A stretch of 64,000 nucleotides of DNA. Origin: Escherichia coli (GTDB lineage: Bacteria; Pseudomonadota; Gammaproteobacteria; Enterobacterales; Enterobacteriaceae). The stretch lies in NCBI RefSeq assembly GCF_003991155.1, contig NZ_CP031293.1; one strand, written 5' to 3'. How positions within the stretch are numbered: position 1 is the stretch's first letter; each line of letters opens with the position of its first letter. This document shows positions 42,871-60,170 of the stretch, piece after piece. The notes beneath the pieces are model-generated. The model was given only the letters and a program-made list of their open reading frames with translations, was not told the DNA's origin and did not search any database. Both the position numbers and the translations under genes were made by a program.

Positions 42871-43164
42871 TTAAAATTCCATTTGTATTTGATCAGAACG
42901 CTCGGTTGCCGCCGGGCGTTTTTTATTGGTGAGAATCGAAGCAACTTGTCGTGCCAATCGAGCCATATCGTCGTCAACGACGCCCCATTCAAGAACAGCA
43001 AGCAGCATTGAGAACTTTGGAATCCAGTCCCTCTTCCACCTGCTGATCTGCGACTTATCAACTCCCACAGCTTCCGCTGTCTTCTCAGTTCCAAGCATTG
43101 CGATTTTGTTAAGCAACGCACTCTCGATTCGTAGAGCCTCGTTGCGTTTGTTTGCACGAACCAT
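42871..43164 (-). CDS. cII: CII-like lysogeny establishment regulator
   Basis: 97 aa from MVRANKRNEALRIESALLNKIAMLG, lambda CII-like. Confidence 0.9.
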   Translation of the reverse strand: MVRANKRNEALRIESALLNKIAMLGTEKTAEAVGVDKSQISRWKRDWIPKFSMLLAVLEWGVVDDDMARLARQVASILTNKKRPAATERSDQIQMEF

Positions 43165-43221
43165 ATGTAAGTATTTCCTTAACAAATAAGAAGTTATGCG
43201 CATCAACTTATGCGCGTTGTA

Positions 43222-43266
43222 TTCCCGCATTTCGGCGGGAATGAGGACCATGACTGTTAAAGAGCA
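43222..43266 (-). promoter_or_regulatory. nutR (boxA + boxB hairpin)
   Basis: Minus strand TGCTCTTTAACA then hairpin TCCCGCCGAAATGCGGGA; same elements downstream of PL. Confidence 0.55.
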
Positions 43267-43272
43267 ATTTGC

Positions 43273-43458
43273 TTATGCCGCTTTGCGGTAAGCGCTTTCT
43301 TGATACTTCAGGGCGCCAGCTGTAACGACTTCCAGTCGATAGGCGTCTTTCTCTGGGATGACTTCCTTCCACTGAGAGACTGCTGCGTCGCTAATGCCTA
43401 ACGCTTTAGCTACAGCACGCTGGGTTCCGAAGTGGTCGATAACATCTTTCTTGTACAT
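43273..43458 (-). CDS. cro: Cro (P22-type)
   Basis: 61 aa, MYKKDVIDHFGTQRAVAKALGISDAAVSQW. Confidence 0.9.
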   Translation of the reverse strand: MYKKDVIDHFGTQRAVAKALGISDAAVSQWKEVIPEKDAYRLEVVTAGALKYQESAYRKAA

Positions 43459-43472
43459 AGACTCGCTCCGAA

Positions 43473-43538
43473 ATTAAAGAACACTTAAATTATCCACTAA
43501 AGGAATCTTAAGTCAAGTTTATTTAAGATGTCTTAACT
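43473..43538. promoter_or_regulatory. OR operator cluster with PR/PRM (three 18-bp P22-type operators)
   Basis: ATTAAAGAACACTTAAAT, ACTAAAGGAATCTTAAGT, ATTTAAGATGTCTTAACT between divergent cro and c2. Confidence 0.7.
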
Positions 43539-44189
43539 ATGAAAACTCAATTGATGGGAGAGCGCATTCGCGCTCGGAGAAAAGAACTCAAGATCAGGCA
43601 GGCCGCACTTGGAAAGATGGTCGGCGTGTCTAATGTTGCCATATCTCAGTGGGAACGCTCTGAGACAGAGCCAAATGGAGAGAATCTTCTCGCCCTGGCT
43701 AATGCGTTGAAGTGTTCCCCTGACTATCTGATGAAAGGAGAGGAAAGTCTTTCAAACATTGCCTATCACAGTAGGCATGATCCAAGAGGGTCATACCCTC
43801 TGATTAGCTGGGTGAGCGCAGGATGCTGGATGGAAGCTGTAGAACCATATCATAAGCGTGCAATAGATAACTGGTACGATACAACCGTAGACTGTTCAGA
43901 AGATTCGTTTTGGTTGGATGTGAAGGGAGACTCAATGACGGCTCCGGCCGGTCTCAGTATCCCTGAAGGAATGATAATACTCGTCGATCCTGAAGTAGAG
44001 CCGCGTAACGGGAAACTGGTAGTTGCAAAGCTCGAAGGAGAAAACGAGGCAACTTTCAAGAAGTTAGTTATTGATGCAGGCAGGAAGTTTCTAAAACCAC
44101 TTAACCCACAATATCCGATGATCGAGATCAACGGAAACTGCAAAATCATCGGCGTAGTTGTCGATGCAAAACTAGCAAACCTTCCATAA
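43539..44189 (+). CDS. c2: C2 repressor (P22-type, LexA-like autocleaving)
   Basis: 216 aa, HTH N-domain and S24 peptidase C-domain. Confidence 0.95.
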   Translation: MKTQLMGERIRARRKELKIRQAALGKMVGVSNVAISQWERSETEPNGENLLALANALKCSPDYLMKGEESLSNIAYHSRHDPRGSYPLISWVSAGCWMEAVEPYHKRAIDNWYDTTVDCSEDSFWLDVKGDSMTAPAGLSIPEGMIILVDPEVEPRNGKLVVAKLEGENEATFKKLVIDAGRKFLKPLNPQYPMIEINGNCKIIGVVVDAKLANLP

Positions 44190-44214
44190 GGGGGCATTCG
44201 CCCCTTTTTTTTAT
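44190..44214 (+). terminator. Intrinsic terminator after c2
   Basis: GGGGCATTCGCCCC followed by TTTTTTTT. Confidence 0.55.
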
Positions 44215-44254
44215 TTCCTTTAAAAATCAAAGCCAAACTTAAGTTACGAAAGAA

Positions 44255-44310
44255 AATTTAAGTTTTCTTCAAAAATACTCTTGACCATTAATTAAAGAGA
44301 TCTTAAATTT
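44255..44310 (+). promoter_or_regulatory. OL operators and PL promoter
   Basis: Operator-like palindrome ATTAAAGAGATCTTAAAT and TTTAAG-containing site; TTGACC -35 at 44281. Confidence 0.5.
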
Positions 44311-44355
44311 AAGCCATCAGCAGGACGCTGGAAGCCAAACGGAACAGATTGGCAG

Positions 44356-44396
44356 GCTCTTTAACATTGATGGGATTGTCCCGCCGAAATGCGGGA
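44356..44396 (+). promoter_or_regulatory. nutL (boxA + boxB hairpin)
   Basis: GCTCTTTAACA then TCCCGCCGAAATGCGGGA, inverted copy of nutR. Confidence 0.55.
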
Positions 44397-44795
44397 ACCA
44401 AAGAGTAGTTGGCTTTGGGATTGGATGAATGAGCAGGCTGATGCTCGACCAATGTATAAACAGCGCTCATGGCAAGCAGTAACCAATCTGCGCCTCAAGA
44501 CAGCGTCACTGGTAGTGCGGGCGCTCTAACCAGTAAGCCGGAGTTCAGCACCGGCCATCCAATCGCCAAAGTCAATTCCATAGGCGTTATGCAGCCGCCA
44601 CCTATTCAAGAAAGCTGCACAAGAGGTAGGAGGATTTATGTGAATACTTACATTCAATTGAGAGATTAATTAAATAGAACTGATCGAGCAGAGTCCATAA
44701 AGGCTCATAAATGCTCTTCCATCCCCGTCTAATTGGCGGGGAAGGAAACCACTTTGTAATAAAAAAATTCCAAAGTTGTTTCATCGGAGGTCAAC

Positions 44796-45095
44796 ATGAC
44801 AGTAGTCATTACATATCTAGCTGACGATAACGCCAGAAATCGCCGCAGAGCACGCAGGCAGGCTCAACGTGAACAGGCAATGCAAGAACAGCGACTGGCG
44901 CGAAAGATTGCGCTAAAGCTCTCTGGTTGCGTCAGAGCAGACAAAGCAGCATCACTCGGAAGCCTTCGCTGCAAGAAGGCAGAAGAAGTCGAGAGTAAAC
45001 AGAACCGTATTTACTACCGCAAGCCACGCAGTGAAATGGGTGTGACTTGTGTTGGTCGCCAGAAAATGAAATTAGGCAGCAAACCACTTATTTGA
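44796..45095 (+). CDS. N-like antitermination protein (P22 gene 24-like)
   Basis: 99 aa, arginine-rich motif NARNRRRARRQAQREQ. Confidence 0.7.
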   Translation: MTVVITYLADDNARNRRRARRQAQREQAMQEQRLARKIALKLSGCVRADKAASLGSLRCKKAEEVESKQNRIYYRKPRSEMGVTCVGRQKMKLGSKPLI

Positions 45096-45106
45096 GAGGA
45101 ATTAAT

Positions 45107-45730
45107 ATGTCATCAATCCGCTTAACTACGAGAATGAAAGAGAAAATCGCTCGTAACGCTTTAATTAAGTCTGGGGTTTTCACTGAACTTGAAGAAGTAA
45201 CAAAGTTAAAGAACCAGCTTGCACTTGACGCCAGAGTTATTGCGTTTGGCGGTAAAAAGAAAACTGAGGAAGTGGATCAGTTATCATCCAGGTTAGTAGC
45301 TATAAGTGAAGAACTTGAAAAGATGGGATGTTCATTTTACTCATACGATGTTCGTTCTACTTCAATTTATCTGACTGTATCTGGCAGAAGGGTTGGATGG
45401 CATTCATATGGGAAAGACGGCAACGGCGAAGATATATTGCTCCCTACTCCAACCAAAGATAAATGCATGTTTGATGCAGAACACGAAATAACAAAAAGGT
45501 TTGATGAAATCTGCGCATTGCAACAAAAACTTGAAGCCAAGAAAAAGGATATCGAATCAAATGTATGGGCTGCTTTGAACTCAGTCACAACAGTTAAGCG
45601 ACTTATTGAAGTTTGGCCTGAAAGCAAAGAATTGCTACCAAAAGAAGCAGACAAAGCAAGTACAGCACTTCCTGCTTTACGGGTAGAAGATTTGAATAAG
45701 ATGATTGGACTTCCTTCCGAGTCCGCATAG
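45107..45730 (+). CDS. Hypothetical early-left protein
   Basis: 207 aa from ATG with GAGAGGA RBS; soluble, no recognised motif. Confidence 0.45.
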   Translation: MSSIRLTTRMKEKIARNALIKSGVFTELEEVTKLKNQLALDARVIAFGGKKKTEEVDQLSSRLVAISEELEKMGCSFYSYDVRSTSIYLTVSGRRVGWHSYGKDGNGEDILLPTPTKDKCMFDAEHEITKRFDEICALQQKLEAKKKDIESNVWAALNSVTTVKRLIEVWPESKELLPKEADKASTALPALRVEDLNKMIGLPSESA

Positions 45731-45903
45731 TCGGCCTTTATTTTTGGCACTAACAACAGAATAAACACTGCACTGTGTATTCATTCCAACGAGTGAATAC
45801 ACGGAGCAATGTCGCTCTTAACTAAACAGGAGCCGACTTGTTCTGATTATTGGAAATCTTCTTTGCCCTCCAGTGTGAGGGCGATTTTTTTGATGGAGGA
45901 TAT

Positions 45904-46872
45904 ATGAGTGAAGTAACAGATTTAGTTGTTATTGAAAAAGCAAATGCAATGACTGTATTTCAGTCTGCCGACCAGATTGAAGAAATCCTTCAAAGGGTTG
46001 AACGTGAAGTTATGTCCTTTGTGCCTGATATCACAACGGCAAAGGGCAGAAAGGAGATCGCTTCTCTGGCGTATAAAGTTGCGCAGACGAAAACATATCT
46101 CGATGGTCTTGGCAAAGACCTTGTTGCTGAACTGAAGGAAATTCCAAAGCTAATTGATGCCAACCGCAAGACAGTGCGCGATCGCCTTGATGAGCTGAAA
46201 GCCAAGGCACGCCAGCCTCTTACTGATTATGAGGAAGAACAGGCGCGGATTAAAGCCGAAGAAGAAGCTAAGGCAGCAGCTGAAGCTCTCGCAAAGCAAA
46301 TTGAGTCTGACCATGAAATAGCTATTTTGATGGATCGCGAATTTGACCGCCAAAGAGAAGAGGCAAGACTCAAAGCGGAGCAGGAAAAGCGAGAGCATGA
46401 AGAACGCTTAAAAAGAGAAGCTGAAGAGAAAGCCAGAGCAGAAGCCGAAGCAAAGGCAAAAGCCGAAATTGAAGCAGCAGCAAGGCGAGAAGCAGAAGCT
46501 AAGGCCGCAGCGGAACGTGCAGAGCGTGAACGCATTGAAGCCGAGCAACGAGCACAGCGCGAAGCAAAAGAGGCAGCAGAACGAGCTGAAAGAGAAAAGC
46601 AGGCGGCAATTGAAGCAGAACGCCGAAAAGCACAGGAGGAGGCTGAACGAATCCGGCGCGAGGCTGAAGCAAAAGAGCAAGCCAGAATAGCAGAAGAAAA
46701 AAGAATCAAGGACGAAGAAGAGCGTAGAGCAAAGGATAAAGCTCACCGGAAAGAAGTAAATAACAAAATACTTGCTGACCTTATCAAGGTTGGCGCATCA
46801 GAAGATGTTGCTAAAAATATCATAACAGCCATCGTAAAAGGCGAAGTATTCGCAACAAAAATAACCTACTAA
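45904..46872 (+). CDS. Coiled-coil protein with TolA domain-II-like Ala/Glu/Lys/Arg repeats
   Basis: 322 aa from ATG with GGAGGA RBS; ~180-aa low-complexity tract. Confidence 0.5.
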   Translation: MSEVTDLVVIEKANAMTVFQSADQIEEILQRVEREVMSFVPDITTAKGRKEIASLAYKVAQTKTYLDGLGKDLVAELKEIPKLIDANRKTVRDRLDELKAKARQPLTDYEEEQARIKAEEEAKAAAEALAKQIESDHEIAILMDREFDRQREEARLKAEQEKREHEERLKREAEEKARAEAEAKAKAEIEAAARREAEAKAAAERAERERIEAEQRAQREAKEAAERAEREKQAAIEAERRKAQEEAERIRREAEAKEQARIAEEKRIKDEEERRAKDKAHRKEVNNKILADLIKVGASEDVAKNIITAIVKGEVFATKITY

Positions 46873-51691: not shown

Positions 51692-51883
51692 ATGACCGAT
51701 ACCAGCCTGATTCCTGAGAAAGAAGTGATGAACAAGCTCGGTGTTTCATCACGTCAGACAATCTGGAACTATACCAAACGGCACGGATTTCCGAAGCCAG
51801 TCAGAACCCACCCCAAATCATACCTTCGTGAAGCTGTTGAAGGGTGGATTCTTAACGGTGGCGTTAATCAGAAATGCTCCTGA
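51692..51883 (+). CDS. xis: AlpA-family excisionase / DNA-binding regulator
   Basis: 63 aa with HTH (LGVSSRQTIWNYTKRHGFPKP); adjacent to integrase. Confidence 0.7.
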   Translation: MTDTSLIPEKEVMNKLGVSSRQTIWNYTKRHGFPKPVRTHPKSYLREAVEGWILNGGVNQKCS

Positions 51884-53042
51884 TGTGCCAGAACAATTTA
51901 TCAGCGTGAAGCTCATACGCTTTGCGCTGAGCCTCTATCCAGTCGTGTTTATTGTATACGGACATTATCCCGCCAAGTTCATGACCGAGCATTCGCTCAG
52001 TAACATGAGGCTCGACATTCATCTCGGACAGACGTGTAACAAGCGTTCTTCTGAAATCGTGTGTTCGCCAGTAACCTAGATCCATCCCTCCCCTTATTCT
52101 ATTTACGAATCGGTTGGCTGCAGCGATGCTGATCGGTTTGTTTATGTCTTCTCCAGGGAAAAGAACATCATTGTACGTTGTCATGGCCTTTTCGAGGAAA
52201 GGCTTAATTTGTTCGAAGATTGGACGGCGGATAGCATTACCCATCTTGCTATGCTCTTTCGGTACGGTCCATACGTTTTCCAGCAGGTCAAATTCTGTCT
52301 TTTTTGCCAGCCTAAGCTCTGAGAGCCTCGCCCCCCACAGCATAAGCATCTGATGAAGTAGCTTATTTGACGTAGACGCACGGCTTCTTTCAATAGCAAG
52401 CCAAATCTTAGCCAGTTCGTGATACGACAGTACACGATCCCCTACCTCAGCGCGGGAGCCGAAGTCCCTTGGTTGGATGCTCATAATTGCGCAACTATCT
52501 ATCAACTGACGCCGCATGCACCAACTTATTGCTGATCTTAGTTGACTTAGCACCTGCCTTGCTCGGCGTGGATTATCTCTTTCTTCTTCGGTAAGCAGGT
52601 CAACCCATTGCTTAACCGTGATAGAAGATGCCGGACGATTAGGGAAGGCGTCATGCATGCGCTTCATAACCGTTGATCGGTAAAGTGCCTGGGTCTTTTC
52701 TCTGAGAGTTGTAGAGACGTAGTTGTCGAACCAGTAGTCGAGACACTGGGCGACCGTCATGGAGTTCTCCACCTTCTCTTCAAAATAAGTGCGTGGATCC
52801 GTTCCTGAGAAATAGAGCTTTCGCAAGTCAGCAGTGATCTGTCTGGCATCCTTCAAAGACATGGATGGGTATCGACCAAGCCCAAGTCGATTAGGCTTGC
52901 CATGCCAGCGATAGCGGTACTGGAACTGGATGACCCCCTTCGGTGAAATTCGTACGCTGAGGCCATCGGCATCAGCCACTTCTTGTGGGCCCGAATATGG
53001 TTTACCATAAATAGTACGAAGTTTTGTGTCGCTTATAGCCAT
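51864..53042 (-). CDS. int: Tyrosine site-specific integrase
   Basis: 392 aa; C-terminal HDFRRT...LGH catalytic region; next to right junction. Confidence 0.9.
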   Translation of the reverse strand: MAISDTKLRTIYGKPYSGPQEVADADGLSVRISPKGVIQFQYRYRWHGKPNRLGLGRYPSMSLKDARQITADLRKLYFSGTDPRTYFEEKVENSMTVAQCLDYWFDNYVSTTLREKTQALYRSTVMKRMHDAFPNRPASSITVKQWVDLLTEEERDNPRRARQVLSQLRSAISWCMRRQLIDSCAIMSIQPRDFGSRAEVGDRVLSYHELAKIWLAIERSRASTSNKLLHQMLMLWGARLSELRLAKKTEFDLLENVWTVPKEHSKMGNAIRRPIFEQIKPFLEKAMTTYNDVLFPGEDINKPISIAAANRFVNRIRGGMDLGYWRTHDFRRTLVTRLSEMNVEPHVTERMLGHELGGIMSVYNKHDWIEAQRKAYELHADKLFWHIRSISD

Positions 53043-57527: not shown

Positions 57528-57793
57528 GGTCATTCTCCTTTACGGTGATAACCGTCGCGTAAGCAAAAAATTGCCCCATTTTTTTGGATTCCTCAGCGAC
57601 AACAACTGTCGATTTTTAGTAAATATCTATCCGGTACGAAGCCCGGCCTCTTGGTATGAATGATTGGTTTGAAGCAAAAAATAACCGACGCTAATTAAAC
57701 GTCGGTTTTTAGTCATTTTTTGACAGCGGCGCATTGTGCCTAAATGGGGGGGAAATGACAAGAGAATGAGAGGCTTGTCATAATAATTTTTCT

Positions 57794-60019: not shown

Positions 60020-60070
60020 ATGACACGCGTTCAATTTAAACACCACCATCATCACCATCATCCTGACTAG
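60020..60070 (+). CDS. hisL: his operon leader peptide
   Basis: MTRVQFKHHHHHHHPD with seven consecutive His codons. Confidence 0.9.
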   Translation: MTRVQFKHHHHHHHPD

Positions 60071-60170
60071 TCTTTCAGGCGATGTGTGCTGGAAGACATT
60101 CAGATCTTCCAGTGGTGCATGAACGCATGAAAAAGCCCCCGGAAGATCACCTTCCGGGGGCTTTTTTATT
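60071..60170 (+). promoter_or_regulatory. his attenuator including terminator hairpin
   Basis: Hairpin AAAGCCCCCGGAAGATCACCTTCCGGGGGCTTTTTT at 60132-60170. Confidence 0.8.

What the first reader, a model, noticed from the sequence alone, without database searches (positions are those of the whole stretch)
43222..44396. Matched nutR/nutL sites flanking the immunity region, with an Arg-rich N-like protein 400 bp downstream of nutL
Identical boxA-like (GCTCTTTAACA) and boxB hairpin (TCCCGCCGAAATGCGGGA) elements occur in inverted orientation downstream of cro and downstream of PL. The N-like gene starts about 400 bp after nutL, further than in lambda, leaving an interval (44397-44795) with only a weak 66-aa ORF lacking an RBS and a short hairpin near 44715. 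That interval may hold a terminator, a small RNA or a leader regulating N translation.
Basis: partly seen in the sequence, partly recalled or inferred. Interest (0 to 1): 0.35.

Follow-up and report, generated by a model that had tools for sequence, protein, structure and literature searches.

The report
Phage N-gene leader with inserted cassette
This is the ordinary lambda-style N/nut antitermination switch of a CUS-3/HK620-type prophage; its unusually long gap before the N gene is an untranslated mRNA leader made of the lambda-type large hairpin plus a 205-base structured insert with a conserved "start-stop" mini reading frame that has not, as far as I could find, been described.

Summary
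Identical boxA (GCTCTTTAACA) and boxB (TCCCGCCGAAATGCGGGA) elements lie just after cro (nutR, minus strand) and 40 nt into the PL transcript (nutL). A 99-aa Arg-rich protein starts 399 nt after nutL. It is 100% identical to phage CUS-3 N. Its N-terminal 64 residues match HK620 N and its C-terminal part matches phage 21 N. This nutL is already annotated in HK620, so that part is known.

The 400-nt interval holds no conserved gene and no intrinsic terminator. It is an N mRNA leader in two parts:
- **Hairpin, 44411-44573.** Its base (GGCUUUGGG…CCAAAG) is homologous to the large hairpin of the lambda N leader, which is RNase III-sensitive by published knowledge. Its arms covary among lambdoid phages.
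- **Optional 205-nt cassette "M3", 44577-44781.** It sits immediately 5' of the N ribosome site. It is present in 158 of 5426 E. coli genomes and in 23 of 78 N-keyed phage contigs, and is precisely absent from HK620, Gally and ENT47670. It occurs upstream of N genes of three different specificities. It has five hairpins, four with compensatory changes, and an invariant AGGAGGAUUUAUGUGA (strong ribosome site, AUG, then stop).

M3 most likely acts in cis on N expression; the mechanism is inferred, not shown. Interest is modest.

The parts
43223..43240 (-). nutR boxB hairpin (stem extends to 43221-43242; loop CGAAAU)
   Evidence: Exact 18-mer, 0 expected by chance. Folds as an 8-bp stem with a 6-nt loop.
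43255..43265 (-). nutR boxA (GCTCTTTAACA, the rrn-consensus type), 8 nt after the cro stop codon and 14 nt 5' of boxB
43273..43458 (-). cro (P22-type), first gene of the PR transcript
   Evidence: Pfam P22_Cro E=8.7e-28
43539..44189 (+). cI/C2-type repressor (HTH_3 plus Peptidase_S24), followed by an intrinsic terminator at 44188-44215
44281..44309 (+). PL promoter (TTGACC, 17 nt, TAAATT). The transcript start is inferred at about 44316 from identity with the lambda pL start motif CATCAGCAGGACGC.
   Evidence: the start site is inferred by homology, not mapped
44356..44366 (+). nutL boxA
   Evidence: The same sequence is annotated within nutL of HK620.
44379..44396 (+). nutL boxB hairpin
   Evidence: It co-occurs with the HK620-type Arg-rich motif in 76 of 76 loci.
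44411..44573 (+). Large N-leader hairpin (163 nt, -68.7 kcal/mol, z=-4.9). Its base GGCUUUGGG / C-GCCAAAGUC is homologous to the lambda N-leader hairpin, so it is the presumed RNase III site.
   Evidence: The arms covary among lambda, P22, phage 21, HK620, an Stx2a phage and IMG/VR contigs.
44577..44781 (+). M3, an optional 205-nt non-coding leader cassette. It is flanked by the imperfect direct repeat CCAAAGTCAAT / CCAAAGTTGTTT.
   Evidence: Presence/absence alignments. Found in 158 of 5426 E. coli genomes and 23 of 78 N-keyed contigs.
44590..44619 (+). M3 hairpin S1 (UGCAGC/GCUGCA; invariant stem, variable C/A-rich loop)
44628..44645 (+). Invariant AGGAGGATTTATGTGAAT: Shine-Dalgarno 44628-44633, AUG 44638-44640, UGA 44641-44643 (a start-stop minimal ORF). 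An overlapping GUG frame would give 3-9 codons, with the length varying by allele.
   Evidence: The exact 18-mer is present in 57 of 57 and 16 of 16 M3 copies found with an independent key and in 23 of 23 M3 copies in the N-keyed sample. It is the longest invariant run in the cassette.
44666..44675 (+). Invariant AU-rich block UUAAUUAAAU, predicted unpaired or only weakly paired
44686..44716 (+). M3 hairpin S2 (two stacked helices, 4 pairs with compensatory changes)
44722..44742 (+). M3 hairpin S3 (CCCCGUC…GGCGGGG; the closing pair switches U-A to G-C). No U-tract follows, so it is not an intrinsic terminator.
44745..44782 (+). M3 hairpin S4. Its 3' arm CCAAAGUUGUUUC copies the 3' arm of the large hairpin and abuts the N ribosome site.
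   Evidence: C-G to U-A change at one pair; repeat structure
44786..45095 (+). N ribosome site (GGAGG 44786-44790) and N gene (44796-45095, 99 aa). The Arg-rich motif is at residues ~12-27.
   Evidence: phrog_271 E=1e-36. 100% identical to CUS-3 N. 98% identical to HK620 N over residues 1-64 and 63/66 identical to phage 21 N over 34-99 (70% overall).

Best explanation
The locus is the N/nut transcription-antitermination module of a CUS-3/HK620-type lambdoid (P22-like) prophage.

**Core mechanism (established for lambda, inferred here).** PL and PR transcripts each carry a nut site made of a consensus boxA and an HK620-type boxB. The N protein's Arg-rich N-terminus binds boxB RNA. With host Nus factors it then makes RNA polymerase resistant to downstream terminators.

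**The 400-nt interval.** It is the untranslated leader of the N mRNA, about 480 nt from the inferred start against about 220 nt in lambda. It has two parts.
1. Positions 44411-44573 are a homologue of the large hairpin of the lambda N leader. In lambda that hairpin is cut by RNase III, and cutting uncouples N translation from repression by N bound at nutL.
2. Positions 44577-44781 are M3, a 205-nt cassette inserted exactly between that hairpin and the N ribosome site.

**M3.** It is RNA-level and plus-strand. It has five conserved hairpins, an invariant strong ribosome site followed by AUG-UGA, and a last hairpin that rebuilds the original sequence context in front of the N ribosome site.

**Proposed role of M3 (inferred).** I think M3 acts in cis on N expression. 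The start-stop would load a ribosome on the long leader. The hairpins would keep the leader compact and poor in single-stranded RNA. Together these would let the first, N-free transcripts reach N without Rho termination or decay, and would change how strongly N translation is coupled to nutL-bound N and to RNase III.

**How M3 spreads (inferred).** Recombination at the conserved CCAAAG hairpin-base repeats, not transposition.
For: **Shown**
- Exact paired nut elements in the canonical positions.
- N family assignment and identity to CUS-3, HK620 and phage 21 N.
- The same nutL is annotated in HK620.
- boxB type and Arg-rich motif type co-occur without exception.
- The lambda leader reads …GGCTTTGGGGTGTGTG…CACACACCACCAAAGC…AGGAGA…ATG. 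It has the same start motif and the same hairpin base as the window.
- The hairpin arms differ but stay complementary in lambda, P22, phage 21, HK620, an Stx2a phage and several contigs. The window hairpin has z=-4.9.
- M3 is a discrete indel. HK620, Gally and 611R6 lack it with the same nutL and N. ENT47670 is the empty-site form of L022, where the 206-nt insert is bounded by a 14-nt direct repeat.
- M3 precedes HK620-type, P22-type and 933W-like N genes.
- On 35 distinct M3 sequences, 99.4% of cells pair, against 39-46% for slid controls. Six pairs have double-sided changes. G-U pairs fit only the plus strand.
- The 18-nt ribosome-site/AUG/UGA block is invariant while the alleles are 61-69% identical overall. 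It is present in every M3 found by independent keys or through N.
- No ORF is conserved on either strand. No protein-family hits for the interval ORFs.

**From the literature**
- N autoregulates its translation through nutL about 200 nt upstream, across a 'highly structured' spacer (PMC5725501, citing Wilson 1997 and 2002).
- Functional start-stops exist in E. coli (bioRxiv 10.1101/520783).

**Supporting pattern**
- A second optional leader cassette, M1, also carries a strong ribosome site plus a 3-codon ORF.
Against: - No experiment or transcript data were available. RNase III cleavage, ribosome occupancy of the start-stop, and any effect of M3 on N are all untested.
- Predicted accessibility of the M3 ribosome site differs between alleles.
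- M3 diversity is really about four or five lineages plus recombinants, so each compensatory change is only one or a few events.
- All M3 copies were retrieved from Enterobacteriaceae phages. None was found in 100,044 species-representative genomes.
- Most phages with the same N and nutL do without M3 (55 of 78), so it is dispensable.
- The same site also accepts an unrelated small-gene insert. That fits a simple insertion hot spot whose inserts only need to be harmless.
- Pfam N_peptide scores below its gathering threshold (18 against 27.9 bits).
Confidence: 0.7

Rival explanations
1. M3 is a functionless passenger. It would be a recombination scar or 'boundary sequence' at an insertion hot spot. 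Its hairpins and start-stop would be kept only because an insert at this spot must not disturb N expression, or because a former small gene has decayed there.
For: - The CUS-3 record labels the whole cI-N gap 'bsq5; boundary sequence'.
- M3 is dispensable (55 of 78 leaders lack it).
- It is bounded by direct repeats of the hairpin base, which would allow both gain and precise loss by recombination.
- The same site holds an unrelated 39-aa small-gene cassette in 9 of 78 leaders and a 66-aa ORF in L049. The ribosome site plus ATG could therefore be a gene remnant.
Against: - Alleles as low as 61-69% identical keep full length, with only indels of 1-6 nt.
- They keep five helices through compensatory and G-U changes.
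- They keep an 18-nt ribosome-site/AUG/UGA block unchanged (column shuffle P about 0.001).
- A decaying remnant would be expected to lose exactly these features.
Confidence: 0.22
2. The interval yields a stable small RNA that acts in trans on host or phage mRNAs. It would be cut out of the PL leader by RNase III or RNase E, for example as the S2-S4 hairpins or the C/A-rich S1 loop.
For: - The structure is strong and conserved.
- An invariant AU-rich single-stranded block lies next to hairpins, which is the usual context for RNase E cleavage or Hfq binding.
- Prophage-encoded regulatory RNAs are common in E. coli (PMC4104026; bioRxiv 10.64898/2026.05.13.724894).
Against: - No Rfam family matches.
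- The known phage anti-sRNAs and Pas sRNAs map to the late PR' region, not the N leader.
- There is no terminator to define a 3' end.
- The loops, where a seed would lie, are the most variable parts.
Confidence: 0.1
3. The interval holds a conditional transcription stop upstream of N, so that N synthesis is gated. The stop would be Rho-dependent or an attenuator controlled by the mini-ORF.
For: - The leader is long and untranslated (about 480 nt).
- A C-rich, G-poor stretch lies at 44590-44625.
- A mini-ORF next to hairpins is the anatomy of many attenuators.
Against: - No hairpin with a U-tract occurs anywhere in 44397-44795.
- The leader is mostly base-paired, which disfavours Rho loading.
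- A consensus boxA lies upstream.
- A start-stop has no codons at which translation speed could be sensed.
Confidence: 0.08
4. The interval encodes a protein: the 66-aa plus-strand ORF (44469-44669), the 60-aa minus-strand ORF (44602-44784), or a 3-9 residue peptide from the GUG that overlaps the AUG.
For: The ORFs exist. PGAP and some phage records call hypothetical proteins here, in different frames and on different strands.
Against: - Neither long ORF is found in any other of 35 distinct M3 alleles. A 1-nt indel and A-run length changes break the frames.
- The 66-aa ORF has no ribosome site.
- No Pfam, PHROG or NCBIfam hits.
- The GUG-frame peptide varies: MNTYIQLRD, MNAYIQF or MNA.
Confidence: 0.02

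Closest known systems
Phage lambda pL leader: nutL, RNase III-sensitive hairpin, N ribosome site, with N autoregulation (Steege 1987; Wilson 1997 and 2002; cited in PMC5725501 and PMC5371410; the content is from my own knowledge because those papers were not held)
   Same: - Same order of elements.
- Same transcript-start motif (CATCAGCAGGACGC).
- boxA then boxB.
- Hairpin with the same base sequence GGCUUUGGG…CCAAAG.
- N is the first gene of the operon.
   Different: - boxB has a 6-nt loop CGAAAU on a CCCGC stem instead of GAAGA/GAAAA on GCCCU.
- boxA is the full rrn consensus.
- The hairpin is 163 nt.
- A 205-nt cassette separates the hairpin from the N ribosome site, so nutL lies 390 nt from that site rather than about 150 nt.
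Phage HK620 nutL/N (AF335538) and phage CUS-3 N with 'bsq5 boundary sequence' (CP000711)
   Same: - nutL boxA and boxB are identical to HK620.
- N is 100% identical to CUS-3 N.
- M3 is 99.5% identical to the copy in CUS-3.
   Different: - HK620 has the minimal leader (boxA to the N ribosome site 138 nt), with no M3 and the small hairpin.
- CUS-3 has M3 but the small hairpin.
- The window combines the large hairpin variant with M3, an architecture seen in 37 of 5426 E. coli genomes.
- Neither record annotates anything functional in M3.
Start-stop minimal ORFs in E. coli (yecJ, hslR; Meydan et al., bioRxiv 10.1101/520783)
   Same: [quoted passage not shown] This arrangement was shown to bind ribosomes and to modestly tune a neighbouring ORF.
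   Different: The published cases lie inside genes. This one lies in a 5' leader about 150 nt upstream of the regulated gene. It has a near-perfect ribosome site and is embedded in a recombining cassette. Ribosome binding was not tested here.
suhB boxA / Nus-factor translational autoregulation (Baniulyte et al., PMC5725501)
   Same: A boxA-nucleated complex on the elongating polymerase represses a downstream ribosome site through an RNA loop. The authors point to the structured lambda spacer as a way to keep the loop compact.
   Different: That is a host gene with a short spacer and no N or boxB. Its relevance to M3 is only an inference about why inserted leader RNA might need to be tightly folded.

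Membership tests
Lambda-type N/nut antitermination system | Small basic protein with an N-terminal arginine-rich motif, recognised by N-family profiles | tested here: met
   NARNRRRARRQAQREQ at residues 12-27. phrog_271 'anti-termination protein N-like' E=1e-36. 63/66 identical to phage 21 N over residues 34-99, 70% overall.
Lambda-type N/nut antitermination system | Pfam PF25694 N_peptide at or above the gathering score | tested here: not met
   18 bits against a cut-off of 27.9, E=0.004. The model is lambda-centred. The PHROG profile and direct identity to named N proteins are the stronger evidence.
Lambda-type N/nut antitermination system | Two nut sites (boxA plus a boxB hairpin) on the PL and PR transcripts, with nutR directly after cro and nutL before N | tested here: met
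   Gene identities, promoters.
Lambda-type N/nut antitermination system | Specific binding of the Arg-rich motif to the cognate boxB RNA, and Nus-dependent terminator read-through | not testable with these tools
   Only indirect evidence: boxB type and motif type co-occur 76/76, 7/7, 2/2 and 1/1 with no mixed pairs.
Lambda N-leader RNase III hairpin | Long hairpin between nutL and the N ribosome site, homologous in sequence at its base and conserved as a structure | tested here: met
   Shared GGCUUUGGG / CCAAAG base with lambda. Covarying arms in about ten leader types. z=-4.9.
Lambda N-leader RNase III hairpin | Cleavage by RNase III and relief of N autorepression | not testable with these tools
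   Requires in vitro cleavage, or rnc mutant reporters.
Start-stop minimal ORF | Shine-Dalgarno at proper spacing, with the start codon directly followed by a stop codon | tested here: met
   AGGAGG, 4 nt, AUG, UGA at 44628-44643. Invariant in all M3 copies.
Start-stop minimal ORF | Ribosome occupancy and an effect on the neighbouring gene | not testable with these tools
   Needs Ribo-RET, toeprinting or reporter fusions.
Intrinsic (Rho-independent) terminator | G+C-rich hairpin followed by a U-tract, within 44397-44795 | tested here: not met
   The scan found none in the interval. The only nearby site is the cI terminator at 44188-44215. Hairpin S3 is followed by AAGGAAACC.
Known RNA families (Rfam 15) | Match at or near the gathering score | tested here: not met
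   The best hits in 43100-45200 score 12-18 bits against thresholds of 43-105. No gathering-level hit in the region.
Transposon-like miniature element (MITE/IS-derived) | Terminal inverted repeats plus a target-site duplication | tested here: not met
   Direct repeats flank M3 (14 nt in L022), but they are copies of the hairpin base. No inverted repeat joins the M3 ends. In L057 the cassette came with a fragment of a neighbouring N start, which points to recombination.

The most novel reading that the evidence does not exclude
M3, and the analogous M1 cassette seen in related phages, would belong to an undescribed class of recombining non-coding leader cassettes. These would be self-folding RNA modules, each carrying a strong ribosome site and a minimal ORF. 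They would slot in at the boundaries of the conserved N-leader hairpin in lambdoid phages of different N specificities. By resetting N translation, stability or autoregulation, they would shift the timing of the lysis-lysogeny decision.
Probability: 0.3. Interest if true: 0.55.

Novelty: new variant of a known kind. Interest (0 to 1): 0.3.

Why it matters
The nut sites and N add nothing new. They are another copy of the HK620/CUS-3-type antitermination module.

The part worth a second look is the leader. N dosage sets the pace of early lambdoid development. In lambda it is controlled through exactly this stretch of RNA, by RNase III and by N bound at nutL.

Nature provides matched alleles here. 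With the same nutL and the same N, the distance from boxB to N is 108, 195, about 312, about 400 or about 565 nt, depending on which of several cassettes are present.

If the invariant start-stop and the covarying hairpins of M3 alter N expression, this would be:
- a clean natural system for studying how 5'-leader start-stops and structured spacers act in bacteria;
- a possible explanation for differences in induction or lysogeny behaviour among prophages of uropathogenic and K1 E. coli (UTI89, NU14, RS218 and IHE3034 carry M3).

If it does nothing, it documents an insertion hot spot only.

Tried and rejected
- **Rfam.** Permissive search of 43100-45200 and gathering-level search of the whole window: nothing in the interval.
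- **Known prophage sRNAs.** AgvB/EcOnc anti-sRNAs and Pas sRNAs lie near PR', Q and the late region, not in N leaders.
- **M3 elsewhere in phages.** A 'distant' BLAST of M3 against 50,697 phage records finds only CUS-3 and HK140. P22 itself lacks M3.
- **Host range.**
  - A scan of 100,044 species-representative genomes with an M3 key gave only chance matches, including Kosakonia.
  - A metagenome scan gave 16 true copies, all of the E. coli alleles already seen.
  - So there was no further diversity for covariation analysis.
- **Coding hypotheses.** No family hits and no ORF conserved across alleles.
- **Internal promoter on either strand.** None beyond PL and PR in the scan.
- **Accessibility of the M3 and N ribosome sites.** Partition-function folding gave inconsistent results between alleles, so it is not used as evidence.
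- **Primary lambda papers.** Wilson 1997 and 2002 are not held in the library. Their content is cited from memory and through PMC5725501.
- **Transposon-like origin.** No terminal inverted repeats.
Full report
**1. The observation**

The region is a lambdoid immunity region.
- cII is at 42874-43164 (minus strand; Phage_CII E=5e-48).
- cro is at 43273-43458 (minus strand; P22_Cro E=9e-28).
- The cI/C2-type repressor is at 43539-44189 (plus strand; HTH_3 and Peptidase_S24).
- The consensus scan finds PR at 43516-43489 (minus strand) and PL at 44281-44309 (plus strand).

The boxB 18-mer TCCCGCCGAAATGCGGGA occurs exactly twice in 64 kb, at 43223-43240 (minus) and 44379-44396 (plus). Shuffles expect no matches. 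The boxA 11-mer GCTCTTTAACA also occurs exactly twice, at 43255-43265 (minus) and 44356-44366 (plus). By itself it is no rarer than chance, with 1.19 matches expected at up to one mismatch. Each copy does, however, sit 14 or 12 nt upstream of a boxB on the transcribed strand.

Both boxB copies fold as a stem of 6-8 bp with loop CGAAAU. nutR starts 8 nt after the cro stop codon. N (44796-45095) starts 399 nt after nutL.

**2. Identity of the nut sites and N**

- The 99-aa protein hits phrog_271 'anti-termination protein N-like' at E=1e-36.
- Pfam N_peptide is below its threshold, at 18 bits against 27.9.
- The protein is 100% identical to N of phage CUS-3.
- It is a mosaic. Residues 1-64 are 98% identical to HK620 N. 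Residues 34-99 differ from phage 21 N at only 3 positions; overall identity to phage 21 N is 70%.
- The HK620 GenBank record annotates the identical sequence as nutL.
- In all fetched loci, boxB type and Arg-rich-motif type co-occur strictly: 76 HK620/HK620, 7 P22/P22, 2 phage 21/phage 21 and 1 lambda/lambda, with no mixed pairs. The sample is biased, but this is what cognate specificity predicts.

Binding itself cannot be tested here. This part of the finding is a known kind of system in a known allele.

**3. The interval is a modular leader**

Phages and prophages with the same nutL and the same N differ widely in the distance between the two.
- From boxA to the N ribosome site the distance is 138 nt (HK620), 225 nt (Gally, 611R6), 342-346 nt (CUS-3, HK140), 430-432 nt (window), 475 nt (an Stx2c phage) and 680 nt (E. 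coli M172-1).
- In a sample collected through the N protein, and so not selected for any leader feature, boxB end to N ATG is 108 nt in 29 loci and 195 nt in 6. It is 309-315 nt in 16, 332 nt in 8, 359 nt in 5, 399-402 nt in 4 and 562-565 nt in 3.
- The alignment shows discrete blocks that are either present or absent.

**4. First block: the lambda-type N-leader hairpin (44411-44573)**

The lambda pL leader reads CATCAGCAGGACGC…boxA…boxB…GGCTTTGGGGTGTGTG…CACACACCACCAAAGCTAACTGACAGGAGAATCCAGATG. The window has the same start motif at 44315-44328 and GGCTTTGGGATTGGATG…CATCCAATCGCCAAAGTC.

Across leaders the basal GGNUUUGGG / C-NCCAAAG is kept. This holds for lambda, P22, phage 21 and mEp235, HK620, an Stx2a phage and several IMG/VR contigs. 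The next 7-10 pairs differ but remain complementary. Examples are GUGACGUG/CGCGUCAC, AUUGGAUG/CAUCCAAU, ACUGGCG/CGCCAGU and AUGCGGUG/CACCGCAU.

The window hairpin folds at -68.7 kcal/mol (z=-4.9). The whole leader has z=-5.7.

From established knowledge, the lambda N leader contains, in order, NUTL, an RNase III-sensitive hairpin and the N ribosome site. N bound at NUTL represses N translation unless RNase III cuts the hairpin. The sources are Steege 1987 and Wilson 1997 and 2002. I could not read them here. They are cited in PMC5371410 and PMC5725501, which also notes that the spacer is 'highly structured'. The homology is shown. RNase III cleavage in this phage is inferred.

**5. Second block: cassette M3 (44577-44781)**

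Distribution.
- Relative to HK620, Gally and 611R6, the window, CUS-3 and HK140 carry 205 nt between …CCAAAGTCAAT and CATCGGAGGTCAACATG.
- Cronobacter phage ENT47670 is 98.7% identical to contig L022 except for a clean 206-nt gap. In L022 the insert is bounded by a 14-nt direct repeat, CAAAGCCATTTCAC. In the window the repeat is CCAAAGTCAAT / CCAAAGTTGTTT.
- M3 is found in 158 of 5426 complete E. coli genomes, always full length, in identity bands of 96% or more, 78.6% and 71-72%. The 78.6% band is a recombinant of the other two.
- It is also found in 57 IMG/VR contigs and 16 metagenome contigs, and in 23 of 78 N-keyed leaders.
- Among isolated phages only CUS-3 and HK140 have it.
- It precedes HK620-type N, P22-type N with P22 boxB (L022, L054, L065, L066), and a 933W-like N (L057). 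In L057 it arrived together with the ribosome site and first codons of an HK620-type N. It also precedes an extra 66-aa ORF in L049.

These junctions, and the lack of terminal inverted repeats, point to recombination at the conserved CCAAAG hairpin base rather than transposition.

Anatomy.
- On 35 distinct sequences whose main alleles are 61-69% identical to the window, RNAalifold predicts hairpins S1 to S4.
- For the five helices, 99.4% of cells form standard pairs, against 39-46% when partners are slid by 1-3 columns.
- Six pairs show changes on both sides. The covariation score is 0.129 against 0.056 in shuffles, with 0 of 500 shuffles reaching it.
- G-U pairs (UG:15, GU:16) would be C-A on the other strand, so the constraint is on the plus-strand RNA, which is the PL transcript.
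- The diversity amounts to a handful of lineages, so this is moderate evidence, not overwhelming.
- The last hairpin, S4 (44745-44782), uses the right-hand repeat as its 3' arm. The N ribosome site is therefore again preceded by the 3' arm of a helix, as it is in leaders without M3.

The start-stop.
- The longest invariant run in M3 is AGGAGGATTTATGTGAAT (44628-44645). It consists of AGGAGG, a 4-nt spacer, AUG, then UGA.
- A key placed elsewhere in M3 (ATGCAGCCGCCA…GCTGCACA) retrieved 57 true copies from IMG/VR and 16 from metagenomes, and all 73 carry the exact 18-mer.
- All 23 M3 copies reached through N carry it too.
- In a column shuffle of six representative alleles, P is about 0.001 for so long an invariant run.
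- The overlapping GUG frame gives 9, 7 or 3 codons depending on the allele, so a peptide is unlikely to be what is conserved.
- Ribosome-binding start-stops have been demonstrated in E. coli genes, with a small effect on the host ORF (bioRxiv 10.1101/520783).

**6. No gene and no terminator**

- The 66-aa plus-strand ORF and the 60-aa minus-strand ORF occur only in the window allele. A 1-nt indel at 44602 and changes in A-run length break them in the other 34 alleles.
- Database annotations in this gap disagree in frame and strand.
- No Pfam, PHROG or NCBIfam hit was found.
- No intrinsic terminator-like site lies in 44397-44795. The S3 hairpin is followed by AAGGAAACC.
- No Rfam match was found.

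**7. How it most likely works**

The nut/N mechanism is that of lambda, with high confidence. For the leader I propose the following, marked as inference.
- The first PL transcripts, made before any N exists, must cross about 480 nt of untranslated RNA.
- The large hairpin is the RNase III-controlled switch inherited from the common lambdoid leader.
- M3 adds tightly folded RNA plus one strong ribosome-loading site. This would protect the lengthened leader from Rho and from decay.
- M3 also moves nutL to 390 nt from the N ribosome site. That would be expected to alter N autorepression.
- S4 preserves the local context of the ribosome site.

A related pattern supports selection for ribosome loading on long leaders. 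The other optional cassette, M1, lies right after boxB in 11 fetched loci and is not in the window. It also carries a strong ribosome site and a 3-codon ORF, CAGGAGGTGCCGTAATGGTGCACTAA.

The main counter-reading is that the site is merely an insertion hot spot. An unrelated 39-aa hydrophobic small gene occupies it in 9 of 78 leaders. On this view M3 is only constrained to be harmless. I rate a positive cis-regulatory role at roughly 0.5-0.6 and the specific mechanism at about 0.25.

**8. Novelty and verdict**

- The nut sites and N are already known (HK620, CUS-3).
- The large hairpin is a new member of the lambda N-leader hairpin.
- The M3 sequence has been public since the CUS-3 genome, where it is labelled only as part of a 'boundary sequence'. 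I found no description of it as a structured start-stop cassette.
- Overall this is a new variant of a known kind, of modest interest.

Noticed in passing
L006:1590-1840 (Stx2c phage EH1904); also L013, L031, L037, L042, L052, L061, L069, L136, L153, L158: A second optional leader cassette, 'M1' (about 250 nt), sits directly after boxB and before the large hairpin. It has two alleles with a diverged middle part. It carries a strong Shine-Dalgarno and a 3-codon ORF (CAGGAGGTGCCGTAATGGTGCACTAA). It is not present in the window.
   Followed up: partly
L169:1168-1500 and L233 (IMG/VR contigs; leaders of 332 and 428 nt): At the same insertion point as M3, between the hairpin 3' arm and the N ribosome site, 9 of 78 N-keyed leaders carry an unrelated cassette. 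It has its own ribosome site and a 39-aa hydrophobic ORF (MLDIMTNPILGGLVTTFAICFGFTIWSEVDDWMWERKNK). This is a possible small membrane protein expressed ahead of N.
   Followed up: no
L057:2733-3323 (-) and L049:3247-3837 (-): In L057 (933W-like N), M3 is followed by a remnant of the HK620-type N ribosome site and first codons. This opens a 33-codon out-of-frame ORF that overlaps the real N start. In L049 a 66-aa ORF (MSSRISNEQKDRLCRLL…) lies between M3 and N.
   Followed up: no
window 45107-45730 (+) and 45850-46872 (+): The gene right after N encodes an Nmad5 protein ('nucleotide modification associated domain 5', Pfam E=4e-72). Most relatives have ral or other small genes at this position. 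It is followed by a 340-aa Glu/Ala/Lys-rich ORF; the corresponding gene in a related prophage (L008) is annotated 'cell envelope biogenesis protein TolA'.
   Followed up: no
window 44411-44571: The interior of this large hairpin variant matches at 98% on its own, without the HK620-type nutL or N flanks, in many E. coli genomes, next to other N genes (hits H43-H48). The hairpin therefore recombines as a separate module.
   Followed up: no
window 44379-44396 and 43223-43240: The boxB loop is CGAAAU. It could be a GAAA tetraloop closed by a C·U mismatch, which would differ from the lambda pentaloop and the P22 loop. I found no experimental work on this boxB type in the held literature.
   Followed up: partly
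window 60046-60169 (+) and 57674-57748 (-): Rfam gathering-level hits to the histidine operon leader and the enterobacterial sRNA STnc240 show chromosomal host DNA flanking the prophage. The integrase-like ORF at 51864-53042 is near the prophage end.
   Followed up: no
window 43191-43215: A short direct repeat (AAGTTATGCGC / AACTTATGCGC, 14 nt apart) lies between nutR boxB and the cII start, where lambda has tR1. It was not examined.
   Followed up: no
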